From the IMG/VR virus record IMGVR_UViG_2711768004_000001: DNA of 7,803 bases; one strand, given 5' to 3'. The first letter of the stretch is position 1, and each line of letters opens with the position of its first letter. Below are positions 1-5,330 of the stretch, piece after piece. The notes below the pieces were generated by a model, which saw only the letters and a list, made by a program, of their open reading frames with translations, searched no databases and was not told the origin of the DNA. Position numbers and translations under genes: made by a program. This stretch comes from a virus. Its lineage: Duplodnaviria > Heunggongvirae > Uroviricota > Caudoviricetes.

Positions 1-34
1 CTCCAATGACTAGTCTAAAAACTAGTATTAAGAC

Positions 35-54
35 TATCACTTATTTAAGTGATA
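35..54. promoter_or_regulatory. 20-bp near-perfect palindrome TATCACTTA-TT-TAAGTGATA (operator-like site) upstream of the endolysin gene
   Basis: Read directly: 9-bp arms TATCACTTA / TAAGTGATA are exact reverse complements, separated by 2 bp, 55 bp upstream of the endolysin ATG. The outer TATCAC/GTGATA hexamers resemble lambdoid repressor/Cro operator half-sites. Two ACTAGT hexamers (9-14, 21-26) lie just upstream. Confidence 0.3.
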
Positions 55-108
55 CTGGTTGTCTGGAGATTCAGGGGGCCAGTCTAGTAAGGCTGCGAGA
101 GGTGAATA

Positions 109-488: not shown

Positions 489-767
489 NNNNNNNNNNNN
501 NNNNNNNNNNNNNNNNNNNNNNNNNNNNNNNNNNNNNNNNNNNNNNNNNNNNNNNNNNNNNNNNNNNNNNNNNNNNNNNNNNNNNNNNNNNNNNNNNNNN
601 NNNNNNNNNNNNNNNNNNNNNNNNNNNNNNNNNNNNNNNNNNNNNNNNNNNNNNNNNNNNNNNNNNNNNNNNNNNNNNNNNNNNNNNNNNNNNNNNNNNN
701 NNNNNNNNNNNNNNNNNNNNNNNNNNNNNNNNNNNNNNNNNNNNNNNNNNNNNNNNNNNNNNNNNNN
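489..767. other. Run of 279 N (assembly gap or masked sequence)
   Basis: Contiguous n characters. Hides the endolysin 3' end and the 5' ends of Rz and Rz1. Gap length is probably not the true length. Confidence 0.99.
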
Positions 768-950: not shown

Positions 951-1003
951 CGGTAATTTTACTCATTATCCTTCAAATCAGATTCTGTTGTCAGAGGAAT
1001 GGG

Positions 1004-1030
1004 GGAAGCTGGATTCGCAAGAGCTTTTTA
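1004..1030 (+). terminator. Weak hairpin followed by T-run downstream of Rz (possible intrinsic terminator)
   Basis: AAGCT (1006-1010) pairs with AGCTT (1022-1026), 11-nt loop, followed by TTTTTA (1025-1030). Short stem, so weak. Confidence 0.2.
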
Positions 1031-1038
1031 TGGGCAGT

Positions 1039-1548
1039 TTAGCTAAAAAAAGGCAACACGAAGCTAAAACTACCAACATAAAGTGCTGACCAGCTAGCAG
1101 CTGAAATCAGACTCACTGTATACACTTTCACTGGATGAAGTTGCAACATTCCTGCCACCAAAGGAGCAATATAACGCAGCACGGCGATAAAGCGCGAAGT
1201 GAAAAGTATTGACACAGAGTTATTTTGCAACTGAAGGCGAACCCGTTCTATTGTATTGGAACGGCTTGATATTATACATGCAAGTTGAGGGATATGCCCA
1301 ATTATTATACCAAGATGGTAATTAACGATAGTACCGCACCATGCGCCACTCATGACCGTGATTCCAGCTTCCCATGGTGAAAGAGTCGTCTTGCTGACTG
1401 TAATTACAGTGGCCATCATAATTGATGCTGGTGGCAATATCGCCGAAATGAGTAAAGTGGATTTTGTGAACGCTATTATAAAAAGAAGCCCCCATAGGCG
1501 ATATGGATGAAGTACAAAATAGTTCATCAAAGCATTTATCCACTCCAT
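1039..1548 (-). CDS. DedA/YqaA-family small polytopic inner-membrane protein; reverse-oriented AT-rich moron
   Basis: 169-codon ORF on the minus strand. ATG at 1548-1546 is preceded by AGGA with 9-nt spacing (the track's first codon is TTG at 1551). Stop TAA at 1041-1039. Several hydrophobic segments. Motif FTSRFIAVLRYIAPLVAGM resembles the DedA/YqaA signature (F-x-x-R-F-x-P-x-x-R-x-x-x-P-x-x-AG). Visibly AT-rich versus the flanking phage genes and opposite in orientation to the late operon. Confidence 0.55.
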   Translation of the reverse strand: MEWINALMNYFVLHPYRLWGLLFIIAFTKSTLLISAILPPASIMMATVITVSKTTLSPWEAGITVMSGAWCGTIVNYHLGIIIGHIPQLACIISSRSNTIERVRLQLQNNSVSILFTSRFIAVLRYIAPLVAGMLQLHPVKVYTVSLISAASWSALYVGSFSFVLPFFS

Positions 1549-1601
1549 CAATGTCTTTCCTTCTGTGAATTTTTCTTTGCTATTTAACCGTGATACGACT
1601 T

Positions 1602-1631
1602 AATTTAGGCTTAAACACCTTACATTTACAA
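1602..1631 (-). promoter_or_regulatory. Candidate sigma70-like promoter for the reverse-strand moron
   Basis: On the minus strand: TTGTAA (plus 1631-1626), 18-nt spacer, TAAATT (plus 1607-1602), about 50 nt upstream of the moron ATG. Pattern match only. Confidence 0.15.
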
Positions 1632-1634
1632 GGT

Positions 1635-1673
1635 ACTCCTGTGGGGGGCCCTGCCACGGAGCGTCGCAGGAGT
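1635..1673. repeat. GC-rich inverted repeat (ACTCCTG ... CAGGAGT) enclosing a G/C-rich core; candidate terminase/cos-type site or regulatory hairpin
   Basis: 7-bp arms 1635-1641 and 1667-1673 are exact reverse complements around a 25-nt core (TGGGGGGCCCTGCCACGGAGCGTCG). The core holds an inner CCTGC/GCAGG inverted repeat and a GGGCCC palindrome. It is a GC-rich block in an otherwise AT-rich intergenic region, 70 bp upstream of the small-terminase start. No U-tract on either strand, so not a classic intrinsic terminator. Confidence 0.3.
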
Positions 1674-1745
1674 GAGTGATGAGGAAGAATTAAAGCAACC
1701 TATTGTGACAGGCAGCGATAACAGTAAATCACAGGAAGCATAATC

Positions 1746-2510
1746 ATGGCAAAACCGGACTGGGAGGCCATCGAATCGGCATACCGGGCCGGAGTCCTTA
1801 GCCTCCGTGATATAGGCGAGAAATACGGCGTTACAGAAGGGGCTATCAGGAAGAGGGCCAAAAAGCTTGGTTGGGCACGCAGTGGCGGTACGCAGGTTTG
1901 CAAAAATGGTACGCAAAAAAGGAAAGTGCGTACCAGCAGAAAGCCTGCCATTACTGGCCTTACACAAAAAAGTACGCAACTAAAAACAGAATCTACACCG
2001 GATACGAAACCGATACGCGGAATGCGTACCGATCCCCCGACTAACCCATTCCAACCCGGTAACCAGCAGGCATTAAAACACGGTGGTTATGCCCGTCGCC
2101 TTCTGCTCAAAGATGAGGTGATAGAGGACGCTAAAGCGTTGACGCTCGAGGACGAATTATTTCGCCTTCGTGCTAACAACCTTGTCGCTGCAGAGAATAT
2201 TGGTCGGTGGTTGGTGTCGCTGGAAGATGCTAATGGGGACCAGGAAAGGAAGATGCTGATTGAAAATATCAGCGCCGCCGAGAAAGCAATGATGCGCAAT
2301 ACAGTTCGTATTGAGTCCATCGTTGGCACGCTTGCGACGGTAGGAAAAATATTTGCTGATACAGCCTACCGCAAGGCCGCCACTGATAAGGTGTCTCTGG
2401 AGGCTGATCGTCTTCGCCGTGATGCAGGTATTGATGATGGCAATGGAGAGCGTGACCTCAATGACTTCTACTCTGACATCCAAACCGACGCTGAATCCGG
2501 CTTTACGTAG
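1746..2510 (+). CDS. Terminase small subunit (N-terminal HTH DNA-binding domain)
   Basis: RBS AGGAAG 9 nt upstream of ATG 1746. N-terminus MAKPDWEAIESAYRAGVLSLRDIGEKYGVTEGAIRKRAKKLGW is a typical terminase small-subunit HTH. A basic low-complexity linker follows. Sits immediately upstream of, and overlapping, the large terminase gene. Confidence 0.85.
   Translation: MAKPDWEAIESAYRAGVLSLRDIGEKYGVTEGAIRKRAKKLGWARSGGTQVCKNGTQKRKVRTSRKPAITGLTQKSTQLKTESTPDTKPIRGMRTDPPTNPFQPGNQQALKHGGYARRLLLKDEVIEDAKALTLEDELFRLRANNLVAAENIGRWLVSLEDANGDQERKMLIENISAAEKAMMRNTVRIESIVGTLATVGKIFADTAYRKAATDKVSLEADRLRRDAGIDDGNGERDLNDFYSDIQTDAESGFT
1887..2040. repeat. Cluster of direct and inverted GTACGCA repeats inside the small-terminase gene (candidate pac / terminase recognition site)
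   Basis: GGTACGCA at 1887-1894 and 1908-1915, GTACGCAA at 1972-1979, inverted TGCGTACC at 1927-1934 and 2033-2040. Copies 1908-1915 and 1927-1934 form an 8-bp inverted repeat with an 11-bp A-rich spacer. Confidence 0.3.
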
Positions 2511-3864
2511 TTTCTGGACTATGCGGGCACGTAACAAAGTGCTTTATGGTGGTCGGTCATCGTCAAAATCATGGGATGCCGCTGGCATTGCCATATTTCT
2601 GTCGAATAAATACACCCTGCGTTTTTGTTGTGCCCGTCAGATCCAGAATAAAATCGAAGAGTCGGTGTATACCCTGCTCAAAATTCAGATAGACAGGTTT
2701 GGTCTGCGGCACCGTTTCCGTATTCTGAACAACAAAATCATTAACCGGGTTACTGGCTCGGAATTTGTTTTTTATGGATTATGGCGCAACATCGAAGAAA
2801 TTAAGTCACTGGAGGGGATCGATGTGTTGTGGCTGGAAGAAGCCCACGCACTGACGGAATACCAGTGGAAAATTCTGGAGCCAACGATCCGTAAAGAGGG
2901 TTCGGAATGCTGGTTCATATTCAACCCCGGACTTGTTACTGATTTCGTCTGGCGCAACTTCGTTGTTGATCCGCCCGAAGGCACTCTCATCCGCAAAATT
3001 AACTATGACGAAAATCCGTTTCTGTCTGACACCATGCTTAAGGTTATCGACGCGGCGCGACGCCGTGATCCGGATGGTTTTAAACATGTGTATGAGGGCG
3101 TTCCGGAGTCTGATGATGATGCGGCAATCATCAAACTGTCTTGGATAGAAGCCGCAGTGGATGCGCACAAAACGTTAAATTTCGAACCCAGTGGAAGAAA
3201 GCGTATTGGCTTTGACGTGGCTGACAGTGGTACAGATAAGTGCGCTAACGTTTACCGTCACGGATCCGTTGTTTTCTGGGCCGACGAATGGAAGGCCAAA
3301 GAAGATGAATTACTGAAGAGCTGCCAGCGTACTTATCAGGCGGCGCTGGAGCGTGAAGCAGATATTGTTTACGACTCTATCGGTGTTGGTGCGTCTGCCG
3401 GTGCTAAATTCTCTGAAATTAACGCTGACCGGAAGAGCGAGAACGCATACGCGCGACGTGTGAATTACCAGAGGTTTAACGCCGGTGCTGGTGTGCATGA
3501 GCCAGATGACGAGTACAACGGCATCCCCAACAAAGACTTTTTCGCAAATCTTAAGGCTCAGGCATGGTGGCTGGTGGCTGACCGTTTCAGAAATACGTTT
3601 AACGCCATTAACAACGGAGAACAGTATCCTGTGGATGAGCTGATCAGCATAGATTCTCGTTGTCCGTTGCTTGAAAAGCTGAAACTGGAACTGACAACAC
3701 CTCATCGTGATTTCGACCGTAACGGACGTGTGATGGTCGAAAGTAAAAAAGACCTCGCAAAACGCGAGATACCGTCACCAAACGTTGCTGATGCATTCAT
3801 TATGGCCTTCGCGCCAATCGATACATCGCTGGATATCTGGGAACAGCTGGGGAGACAGGCCTGA
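2461..3864 (+). CDS. Terminase large subunit (Terminase_6/PBSX-like ATPase-nuclease)
   Basis: Long ORF with P-loop-like LYGGRSSSKSW near the N-terminus and later blocks (IKSLEGIDVLWLEEAHALT, WFIFNPG, FVVDPPEG, AIIKLSWIEAAVDAHK) that match recalled P22/Sf6-type large terminases. Start chosen at ATG 2461 (GGAG 2445-2448; N-terminus MTST...). Alternative in-frame ATGs at 2434, 2437 and 2443. The track ORF start at 2353 is probably read-through inside the small-terminase gene. Stop TGA 3862-3864. Confidence 0.88.
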   Translation: MTSTLTSKPTLNPALRSFWTMRARNKVLYGGRSSSKSWDAAGIAIFLSNKYTLRFCCARQIQNKIEESVYTLLKIQIDRFGLRHRFRILNNKIINRVTGSEFVFYGLWRNIEEIKSLEGIDVLWLEEAHALTEYQWKILEPTIRKEGSECWFIFNPGLVTDFVWRNFVVDPPEGTLIRKINYDENPFLSDTMLKVIDAARRRDPDGFKHVYEGVPESDDDAAIIKLSWIEAAVDAHKTLNFEPSGRKRIGFDVADSGTDKCANVYRHGSVVFWADEWKAKEDELLKSCQRTYQAALEREADIVYDSIGVGASAGAKFSEINADRKSENAYARRVNYQRFNAGAGVHEPDDEYNGIPNKDFFANLKAQAWWLVADRFRNTFNAINNGEQYPVDELISIDSRCPLLEKLKLELTTPHRDFDRNGRVMVESKKDLAKREIPSPNVADAFIMAFAPIDTSLDIWEQLGRQA

Positions 3865-5330
3865 TGGCACGAAACAAACAAGCCCTGCGGCGAACTGTGC
3901 AGGCCACAGCTGATGGTTATGAGAATTTTATTGCCCGCGTAGGGATGCAGACACCTAACCAGCACTCAGCATCCACCTACCGGGCTAATTTCACCAGTCG
4001 TAACCGCATGCTGGTGGAATGGTCCTATCGTTCATCCTAGATCATCGGCGAAGCAGTCGATGCTATCCCGGATGATATGACCCGCAAAGGCATTCGCATC
4101 ACTTCGGAAATTGATGCAAAAGATCGTGGCATTCTCGAATCACAACTGGATGAGTTGCAAATCTGGGATGCGCTGAATGACGTGCTGAAATGGTCGCGCC
4201 TCTACGGCGGCGCGGTGGGTTTCATCATGATTGAGGGGTAGGCACCAATGACCCCGCTGCGACCCGAAACCATCGGTAAGGGCAAGTTTAAGGGGATTCT
4301 CCCGCTCGACCGCTGGATGGTCGACCCGGCACTGACCCGCCGCATTAAAGATATGGGGCCGGACCTGGGTAAACCTGAGTTTTACGATGTGGTGACCACA
4401 GCAACGGGAATTCCTGCCTGGCGCATTCATCACAGTCGCCTGATTCGCTTTGATGGCGTCACGTTGCCATTTCAGCAGAAGATGACCGAGAACGAATGGG
4501 GAATGTCGGTTGTAGAGCGTATCTGGGATCGTCTTACCGCGTTCGACAGCGCTACTGTCGGCGCGGCGCAGCTGGTCTACAAGGCGCATTTGCGTACCTA
4601 CAGCGTGGAGAAGCTACGCGAGCTTATCGCACTTGGTGGTCCTGCGTATGAAGCGTTGCTGAAGAATATCGACCTGATTCGACAGTTCCAGAGTAATGAA
4701 GGCATGACGCTCATGGACTCGCGGGATAAGTTTGAAACCCATCAGTACAGCTTCAGTGGTCTGGATGACATCCTTTCGCAGTTTGTAGAACAGATTAGTG
4801 GCGCTGTTGGTATCCCACTGGTGCGGTTGTTCGGACAGTCCCCGAAAGGATTTTCTACCGGTGATGCAGACCTTGCCAACTATTACGATCGCATCAGTTC
4901 GTTGCAGGAGAGGCGTTTACGTCTTCCGGTGCGGCGGATACTGGACATCATGCATCGTTCGGAACTTGGCAAGCCGCTGCCGGACGATTTCACGTTTGAG
5001 TTTAACCCGCTCTGGCAAATGTCTGATGTCGATCGCTCAACGGTGGCGTTAAACACCACCAACGCAATCAGTACGGCGCTGGGTGATGGTCTGATGACAC
5101 TGAAAGCCGCTATGACTGATTTGCGAGAAAATTCTGACGTAACCGGCATCGGGGCATCCATTACCGACGAGGACATCGAGAATGCCGAAGATGAAGCGCC
5201 GCCCGGCATCGGCGAACCTGATGACGAACCGCAGGAGCCGTCAGGCGGAAATCCGGTATCGAACCAGCCTACGCAGGATAGCGAGGGCGGTCGGAGACAT
5301 CGTAAATGGTCGCTACGATGGTTCAAATGA
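3864..5330 (+). pseudogene. Portal protein gene interrupted by two in-frame TAG codons (intact ORF remnant 4248-5330)
   Basis: ATG 3864 overlaps the terminase stop (TGATG). A single frame is readable from 3864 to 5330, with TAG at 4038-4040 and TAG at 4239-4241 as the only stops. Translation continues sensibly through both (…EWSYRSS*IIGEAVDAIPDD… and …FIMIEG*APMTPLRPE…). Acidic C-terminal tail. Position between large terminase and the Mu-F-like gene fits a portal. Confidence 0.75.

What the first reader, a model, noticed from the sequence alone, without database searches (positions are those of the whole stretch)
1635..1673. GC-rich nested inverted repeat immediately upstream of the small terminase gene
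A 7-bp perfect inverted repeat surrounds a G/C-rich core containing an inner inverted repeat and a GGGCCC palindrome. It is a compositional outlier in the AT-rich island, 70 bp before the terminase start, and it lacks the U-tract of an intrinsic terminator. Candidate roles are a terminase-recognised site (cos-like), a boundary between the moron promoter and the late operon, or an RNA processing/stability hairpin at the 5' end of the head-gene message.
Basis: seen in the sequence. Interest (0 to 1): 0.35.

Follow-up and report, generated by a model that had tools for sequence, protein, structure and literature searches.

The report
Incidental hairpin at a prophage joint
The GC-rich inverted repeat is really there, but it is an unconserved, statistically ordinary feature of the DNA joint left where a foreign DedA membrane-protein gene (a "moron", a phage-carried extra gene) was spliced in next to the small terminase gene, and it is not a DNA-packaging site.

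Summary
The repeat exists as described: ACTCCTG 1635-1641 and CAGGAGT 1667-1673, a 72% G+C core, no U-tract, 72 nt before the terS ATG.

It is not more than chance. Perfect 7-bp inverted repeats occur 20 times in the window, against 13±5 in shuffles. Folding is no better than shuffled sequence (z -0.71 RNA, -0.83 DNA).

It does not belong to the terminase module. Relatives with 97-98% identical TerS lose all similarity to the window exactly at the terS ATG. Most carry a different, covarying hairpin there (CATTACAG-stem-loop-CGATAATG), which the window lacks.

It does not belong to the conserved DedA unit either. That unit ends near 1625 in the Citrobacter homologues.

The repeat therefore sits in the lineage-specific right joint (1627-1745). 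This joint was found only in a few near-identical E. coli/Shigella prophages, always next to DedA.

TerL is of the Sf6/P22 headful type, so a cos-like role is very unlikely.

Best reading: an incidental stem-loop in recombination-joint DNA, passively transcribed in the late mRNA. A minor RNA or DedA-promoter role cannot be excluded. Interest is low.

The conserved leader hairpin seen in the relatives is the more interesting by-product.

The parts
1635..1641 (+). Left arm of the inverted repeat, ACTCCTG (contains the anti-Shine-Dalgarno-like CTCCT)
1667..1673 (+). Right arm of the inverted repeat, CAGGAGT (contains the Shine-Dalgarno-like AGGAG)
1642..1666 (.). G+C-rich 25-nt spacer. It holds a G6C3 run (GGGCCC at 1646-1651) and the short internal complements GTGG/CCAC. 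One C of the run is missing in two of the copies fetched.
1634..1674 (+). Predicted RNA stem-loop in the late-transcript sense: 11-bp stem with three G.U pairs, -20.9 kcal/mol. The complementary strand reaches only -14.8 in 45-nt windows (-16.3 for the 61-nt stretch) and does not use the outer stem.
1627..1745 (.). Lineage-specific right joint between the DedA unit and terS. It has no detectable homologue outside a few near-identical E. coli/Shigella prophages. It carries the inverted repeat and the terS ribosome-binding site (AGGA 1733-1736).
1552..1625 (-). DedA upstream block conserved with the Citrobacter homologues (5' UTR, RBS and probable promoter). The putative -35 TTGTAA at 1631-1626 straddles its outer edge; the putative -10 TAAATT is at 1607-1602. 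The promoter was read by eye and was not called by the scan.
1039..1551 (-). DedA/VTT-domain membrane protein gene (a moron) transcribed against the late operon
951..1745 (.). Block that occupies, in this lineage, the place of the 57-nt Rz-to-terS spacer of relatives such as L068 (left joint, DedA unit, right joint)
1746..2510 (+). Small terminase gene (PHROG 370, E 7.5e-95). Similarity to relatives begins at its ATG.
2353..3864 (+). Large terminase open frame (the true start is probably later). Terminase_3/PBSX family; closest solved structure is Sf6 gp2.

Best explanation
The inverted repeat is an incidental feature of a short piece of joint DNA.

In relatives, the lysis gene Rz is followed after 57 nt by terS, and that spacer carries a conserved leader hairpin. 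In this E. coli/Shigella prophage lineage the spacer is replaced by a ~795-bp block (951-1745). The block consists of a left joint, a leftward DedA gene with about 75 nt of its own upstream region, and a ~120-bp right joint that supplies a new ribosome-binding site for terS. The GC-rich repeat lies in that right joint. It sits about 10 nt outside the conserved DedA unit and 72 nt upstream of terS.

Shown: its position, its linkage to DedA rather than to terS, its absence from relatives, and its lack of statistical excess.

Inferred: it has no dedicated sequence-specific function. It is simply transcribed as part of the rightward late mRNA. There it can fold into an 11-bp stem-loop that neither terminates transcription (no U-tract) nor directs packaging. 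The origin of the 120-bp joint is unknown.
For: - Inverted repeats of this size are at chance frequency, and folding is not better than shuffles for RNA or DNA on either strand.
- terS relatives (80 IMG/VR loci, 84-100% aa identity) show about 25% identity to the window upstream of the ATG and about 100% from the ATG on. 33 of 37 distinct upstream types carry a different, covarying hairpin instead. Covariance models of it find no significant copy in the window: the hairpin-only model R2 scored 8.4 bits (E 0.78) at an unrelated place, and the 13.3-bit R1 hit at 1690-1751 rests on the SD/ATG part.
- DedA homologues in Citrobacter prophages and chromosome share only window ~1025-1625; every lineage differs beyond ~1625.
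- The joint occurs in 6 of 5426 complete E. coli genomes, 13 IMG/VR contigs and 2 GTDB species representatives, all with DedA alongside. About 27 copies carry four single-site variants in 119 nt, none in the arms, where about 0.5 would be expected, so this is uninformative. One variant is a deletion in the GGGCCC run.
- There is no match in phages, plasmids, JGI metagenome contigs, Rfam, or 5.8 billion proteins in four reading frames.
- There is one place per genome, so it is not a dispersed repeat.
Against: - The hairpin is one of the four most stable 45-nt RNA folds in the window and the strongest in any intergenic stretch.
- G.U pairs make it clearly more stable in the late-transcript sense than in the opposite sense. 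The conserved leader hairpin of relatives shows the same asymmetry.
- It sits where relatives keep a structured leader, so a non-homologous substitute is conceivable.
- The copies are too alike to test for selection, so lack of conservation evidence is not evidence of no function.
- The joint co-occurs with intact TerL and portal frames in some prophages (L010, L012, L013, L016).
Confidence: 0.6

Rival explanations
1. A functional RNA stem-loop in the late mRNA leader. After the late transcript is cut (for example where it pairs with the antisense DedA mRNA), the hairpin would lie near the new 5' end and shield the terS-head message from 5'-end-dependent decay, or modulate terS translation. 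This would replace the lost conserved leader hairpin with a non-homologous one.
For: - The + strand RNA fold is -20.9 kcal/mol against -14.8 for the - strand in 45-nt windows, owing to three G.U pairs.
- The hairpin persists in the MFE and centroid of longer contexts.
- Relatives keep a strand-specific covarying hairpin at the start of the head-gene region.
- The left arm is also complementary to the terS SD region 1730-1736 (I4).
Against: - The z-scores are not significant, and there is no covariation data.
- Other relatives lack any comparable hairpin directly before terS (L095; L097 carries the conserved one 500 nt away).
- The shape and distance differ from the conserved element: a 19-nt interior rather than a 3-5 nt loop, and 72 nt rather than about 20 nt to the ATG.
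- The window prophage is defective (IS2-truncated late operon, broken portal).
Confidence: 0.17
2. A DNA-level regulatory or insulating site for the DedA promoter. The repeat spans about -40 to -78 relative to the inferred DedA start and could bind a dimeric regulator, or delimit the AT-rich promoter island.
For: - The repeat begins 3-4 nt upstream of the putative -35 (TTGTAA 1631-1626), with a -10 TAAATT at 1607-1602. Both were read by eye against the alignment.
- It travels with DedA into a different terminase context (L002/L006).
Against: - It is absent upstream of every other DedA homologue, whose conserved block stops at ~1625.
- Centre-to-centre arm spacing of 32 bp is atypical for operators (general knowledge).
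- The scan called no sigma-70-like promoter in 1552-1745, so even the promoter is inferred.
- The linkage in L002 also includes the first 40 nt of terS, so it reflects a crossover point, not selection.
Confidence: 0.1
3. A relic of something once functional: the 3' end of a gene (frame +1 is open 1615-1743 and stops 2 nt before terS; a minus-strand frame stops at 1626), or a decayed terminator.
For: - Two frames are open across the whole joint.
- Coding-like G+C content inside an AT-rich spacer.
- Some relatives carry true intrinsic terminators 60-70 nt before terS.
Against: - tblastn against phages found no protein-level match, and neither did a four-frame chimeric query against 5.8 billion proteins at E<=10.
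- There is no T-tract remnant on either strand.
Confidence: 0.1
4. A terminase recognition site (cos-like or pac) used to start DNA packaging.
For: Proximity to terS (72 nt) and a GC-rich palindromic character.
Against: - TerL belongs to Terminase_3/PBSX and is closest to Sf6 gp2. P22 and Sf6 are headful packagers, and the P22 pac site lies inside the TerS gene (PMC9611059).
- The element is absent from prophages with 97-98% identical TerS.
- It persists next to an unrelated terminase in RMDEC465.
Confidence: 0.03

Closest known systems
Mosaic module joints flanking morons in lambdoid phages (moron concept of Hendrix/Juhala and colleagues; own knowledge)
   Same: A foreign, oppositely oriented gene with its own upstream region lies between the lysis cassette and the head genes, like bor in lambda. 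It has sharp homology breaks on both sides. The same DedA unit is found in prophages with three different terminase types.
   Different: The repeat is not part of the conserved moron unit and is not a terminator. It lies in extra joint DNA of unknown origin.
Rho-independent (intrinsic) terminator
   Same: A G+C-rich inverted repeat in an intergenic region. Some relatives have real terminators at a similar distance before terS.
   Different: There is no U/T tract on either strand. The interior is 19-25 nt instead of a 3-8 nt loop. The terminator scan did not call it.
Conserved late-leader hairpin of related enterobacterial prophages (CATTACAG-stem-loop-CGATAATG; described here, not in Rfam 15)
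   Same: A stem-loop in the late-transcript sense, upstream of the first head or packaging gene, stabilised by G.U pairs on that strand only.
   Different: There is no sequence or shape similarity. The covariance model finds nothing in the window. The window repeat has no covariation support and lies farther from the ATG.
pac site of P22/Sf6-type headful phages
   Same: The window's TerL is of this type.
   Different: The P22 pac is a 22-bp asymmetric sequence inside the TerS gene (PMC9611059). The window repeat is outside terS and does not travel with the terS module.

Membership tests
Intrinsic terminator | G+C-rich stem with a short (3-8 nt) loop | tested here: not met
   The stem is 7 bp perfect (11 bp with G.U pairs), but the interior is 19-25 nt. 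The scan did not call it.
Intrinsic terminator | Run of U/T immediately 3' of the stem | tested here: not met
   GAGTGATGAGG follows on the + strand and ACCTTGTAAATG on the - strand.
cos site (lambda/HK97-type) | Partnered with a cos-type large terminase | tested here: not met
   TerL is Terminase_3/PBSX, closest to Sf6 gp2 at E 9e-79.
pac site (P22/Sf6-type) | Co-inherited with the small terminase that recognises it | tested here: not met
   Absent from the relatives that do not carry the DedA joint, across 80 loci of 84-100% TerS identity. Similarity starts at the ATG. The element is present next to a different terminase in L002.
pac site (P22/Sf6-type) | Packaging-series termini map to the site | not testable with these tools
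   Needs virion DNA of a viable carrier. The window prophage is IS-truncated.
Conserved late-leader hairpin (CATTACAG...CGATAATG) | Match to a covariance model of the element | tested here: not met
   With R2 the best score in the window is 8.4 bits (E 0.78), at an unrelated place. True members score 54-57 bits.
DedA moron unit | Lies inside the block conserved among DedA homologues in different contexts | tested here: not met
   The conserved block ends at window ~1625, and the repeat starts at 1635.
Dispersed repeat (REP/MITE-like) | Several copies per genome | tested here: not met
   One place per genome, in 6 of 5426 E. coli genomes.
Any Rfam 15 RNA family | cmscan match | tested here: not met
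   Nothing overlaps 1552-1745 at E<=10.

The most novel reading that the evidence does not exclude
The GC-rich stem-loop is a non-homologous functional replacement for the conserved late-leader hairpin that relatives carry before their first head or packaging gene. That would mean a 5' stem-loop as such (for mRNA processing, stability or translation of the head operon) is required and can be supplied by unrelated sequence.
Probability: 0.1. Interest if true: 0.4.

Novelty: not a real feature. Interest (0 to 1): 0.08.

Why it matters
As it stands it matters little. It is a cautionary example that a GC-rich palindrome beside a terminase gene need not be a packaging signal. A comparison with relatives at the module boundary settles that quickly.

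Its indirect value is that the comparison exposed a widespread, strongly covarying RNA-like hairpin at the start of the head-gene region of many enterobacterial lambdoid prophages. That hairpin is absent from Rfam, and the window lineage has lost it. If the window's repeat turned out to substitute for it, that would point to a general need for a structured leader on late head-gene messages.

Tried and rejected
- Rfam scan of 900-1900 at E<=10: nothing relevant.
- tRNA/tmRNA scan: none.
- Promoter/terminator scan: no site in 1552-1745.
- blastn (word 11) of the spacer against phages and plasmids: no match.
- Two JGI metagenome pattern scans (repeat core; right part of the joint): zero hits.
- Relic-gene idea: tblastn of the open +1 frame against phages, and a four-frame chimeric peptide against 5.8 billion proteins, both empty.
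- 'Decayed copy of the conserved leader' idea: model R1 gave 13.3 bits (E 0.043) at 1690-1751. That score came from the SD/ATG part, and the hairpin-only model R2 gave nothing, so it was rejected.
- 9-bp long-range complement CAGGAGTAC 915-923 / GTACTCCTG 1633-1641 flanking DedA: it lies in conserved Rz coding sequence and, by my own back-of-envelope estimate, is within chance expectation.
- SD/anti-SD switch (left arm pairing either with AGGAG 1668-1672 before a 4-codon mini-ORF or with the terS SD): rests on a 5-nt CAGGA motif, with no comparative support.
- HK639 and SEN34 share only the first ~50 nt of terS and lack both hairpins.
- The Mulock genome paper says nothing on packaging.
- Literature search for the conserved hairpin by sequence: none.

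Full report
**What is in the window**

The window is a fragment of a defective lambdoid prophage of E. coli/Shigella.
- Bases 1-86 are an inverted IS2 end and 7714-7803 an IS1 end.
- Bases 489-767 are masked as N.
- The genes are an rrrD-type lysozyme and Rz, then a leftward DedA/VTT-domain gene (1039-1551).
- Next comes terS (1746-2510; PHROG 370, E 7.5e-95), then a Terminase_3/PBSX TerL.
- After that come a split portal, a Mu-F-like protein, a DUF2213 protein and a cement protein.

The finding lies in the 194-nt spacer between the divergent DedA and terS genes.

**The observation**

The repeat is exactly as described.
- ACTCCTG at 1635-1641 and CAGGAGT at 1667-1673 are perfectly complementary, 25 nt apart.
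- The core holds G6C3, with GGGCCC at 1646-1651.
- The 39-mer is 72% G+C, in the top 0.7% of the window, next to DNA of 27-33% G+C.
- No T-run follows on either strand, and the terminator scan called nothing there.

As RNA in the late-transcript sense it folds into an 11-bp stem (1634-1644 with 1664-1674, three G.U pairs) at -20.9 kcal/mol. In 45-nt windows the opposite strand reaches only -14.8 and does not use the outer stem.

**Is it more than chance? No.**
- Perfect 7-bp inverted repeats with spacers of 3-30 nt occur 20 times in the window, against 13.1±5.0 in shuffles.
- Against dinucleotide shuffles the fold z-scores are -0.71 and -1.17 for RNA, and -0.83 and -1.62 for DNA.
- The whole leader 1595-1765 folds worse than shuffled sequence (z +1.12).
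- The hairpin is one of the four most stable 45-nt folds of the window in absolute terms. Correcting for G+C puts it only in the top 2.3%.

What stands out is the composition, not the symmetry.

**It does not belong to the terminase module**
- megablast against phages and against 5426 complete E. coli genomes shows that similarity of the terS module to other prophages starts at window 1727-1744.
- I fetched 80 IMG/VR loci encoding TerS relatives of 84-100% identity.
- Anchored at the ATG, identity to the window is about 25% upstream and about 100% from the ATG on. This holds even for relatives 97-98% identical in TerS.
- 33 of 37 distinct upstream types carry a different element: CATTACAG, a 9-10 bp stem with a 3-5 nt loop, then CGATAATG, then the ribosome-binding site.
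- RNAalifold finds 16 pairs in that element, 6 with compensatory double changes and none broken.
- In relatives such as L068 the Rz stop codon is followed two bases later by this element. The ancestral arrangement is therefore Rz, 57 nt, terS.
- A covariance model of the hairpin alone finds nothing in the window (best 8.4 bits, E 0.78, at an unrelated place), while true members score 54-57 bits.
- An earlier 13.3-bit hit at 1690-1751, from a model that included the SD and ATG, rests on that 3' part.

**It does not belong to the DedA unit either**
- DedA has 74-78% identical homologues in Citrobacter. Some lie in prophages between the lysis genes and terminases of other types (GpA type; Terminase_6 with Terminase_2). 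Others lie in the chromosome beside dinI.
- Aligned in the DedA sense, all lineages share the gene, about 12 nt downstream and about 75 nt upstream (window ~1025-1625). All differ beyond that.
- The repeat starts at 1635.

It therefore lies in a right joint (1627-1745) that belongs to neither module.

By eye, a -35-like TTGTAA (1631-1626) and a -10-like TAAATT (1607-1602) for DedA sit right next to the repeat. The scan tool did not call a promoter there, so this part is inference.

**Distribution of the joint**

The spacer occurs in 6 of 5426 E. coli genomes, once each. It also occurs in 13 IMG/VR contigs and in the Shigella flexneri and E. coli representatives of GTDB. DedA is always alongside.

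The roughly 27 copies are 99-100% identical. I saw four single-site variants in 119 nt:
- a C deletion in the GGGCCC run;
- a change in the terS SD;
- one other substitution;
- an IS insertion near the ATG.

None falls in the arms, where about 0.5 would be expected. Conservation of the arms therefore says nothing.

In RMDEC465 and L006, DedA, the repeat and the first 40 nt of terS are joined to an unrelated terminase module. This shows linkage to DedA and a crossover inside the shared 5' end of terS.

There is no match in phages, plasmids or JGI metagenome contigs, nor in Rfam.

Two reading frames are open across the joint. Neither tblastn against phages nor a four-frame chimeric peptide search of 5.8 billion proteins found a relative. 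A relic-gene origin is therefore unsupported.

**Packaging**

The closest solved structure to TerL is Sf6 gp2 (4IDH, E 9e-79). P22 and Sf6 package by the headful mechanism, and the P22 pac site is a 22-bp sequence inside the TerS gene (PMC9611059).

A cos-like site is therefore not expected. A pac site that does not travel with its TerS is implausible.

**Verdict on mechanism**

The most likely reading (about 0.6) is that the repeat is an incidental property of recombination-joint DNA that came in with the DedA moron and displaced the family's structured leader.
- It is transcribed passively in the late mRNA.
- It can form a stem-loop there.
- It neither terminates transcription nor directs packaging.

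What keeps the rivals alive:
- the absolute stability of the fold;
- its strand asymmetry through G.U pairs;
- its position where relatives keep a structured leader.

The rivals are an RNA role in stability or translation of the terS message (about 0.17), a DNA-level role at the DedA promoter (about 0.1) and a relic of an older element (about 0.1). A packaging role is about 0.03. Some carriers keep intact TerL and portal frames, so experiments are possible.

**By-product: the conserved leader hairpin**

The conserved leader hairpin of the relatives is a well-supported structured element.
- There are 48 distinct stem-loops in 82 instances.
- On 50 distinct sequences, 98.8% of cells pair, against 86% in shuffles and 34-52% when the partners are slid. 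There are 78 double-change cells, and 7 of 15 pairs covary.
- U.G pairs are frequent in the late-transcript sense. This points to RNA rather than a protein-binding palindrome.
- It precedes small terminases of several families, HNH genes and small ORFs.
- It occurs in a Citrobacter prophage with a lambda-type GpA terminase, so it is not a packaging site.
- It has no Rfam match, and I found no paper containing its sequence.

Caveat: the flanks and the TT/AG positions were fixed by my search pattern. The stems were not.

Noticed in passing
Not in the window. For example L063 1444-1482, L045 1443-1482, L024 2716-2755 (- strand), L097 948-988, and L115-L194.: A conserved, strongly covarying, strand-specific hairpin, CATTACAG-[9-10 bp stem, 3-5 nt loop]-CGATAATG. 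It usually sits 18-27 nt before the first gene after the lysis cassette in many enterobacterial lambdoid prophages (at least 120 IMG/VR contigs, 48 stem variants). It occurs with different terminase types and is absent from Rfam 15. Function unknown; an RNA processing, stability or translation element of the late head-gene message is my guess.
   Followed up: partly
window 1-86 and 7714-7803: An inverted IS2 end and an IS1 end bracket the fragment. IS2 cuts off the holin and everything upstream, so the late operon here is separated from its promoter.
   Followed up: partly
window 3864-5330: The portal gene (Phage_portal_3/DUF1073) is split into three frames (3864-4040, 4077-4241, 4248-5330). 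The same split is seen in L009 and L015. It is one 512-codon frame in L010, L012, L013 and L016.
   Followed up: partly
window 489-767: A run of N (masked sequence) spanning the end of the lysozyme gene and the start of Rz.
   Followed up: no
window 1039-1625: The DedA/VTT-domain moron has 74-78% identical homologues in Citrobacter prophages, always between the lysis and terminase genes and against the late direction, and in the Citrobacter chromosome beside dinI. The mobile unit is about 600 bp, with about 75 nt of conserved upstream sequence.
   Followed up: partly
window 1746-1795; L002 3245-3284; L113 51-100: The first 40-50 nt of terS (MAKPDWEAIE...) are shared between otherwise different small terminase genes (HK639, SEN34). 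They mark the crossover point in RMDEC465, which suggests a recombination hotspot at the 5' end of terS.
   Followed up: partly
window 1668-1693 and 1730-1736: AGGAG in the right arm is followed 6 nt later by a 4-codon mini-ORF (AUG 1679, MRKN, stop 1691-1693). The left arm TCCTGTG is also complementary to the terS SD region CACAGGA. Both are probably chance.
   Followed up: no
L066 1154-1218: An int-alpA RNA (RF02996, 49.3 bits, E 6e-8) lies about 280 nt upstream of terS in one relative.
   Followed up: no
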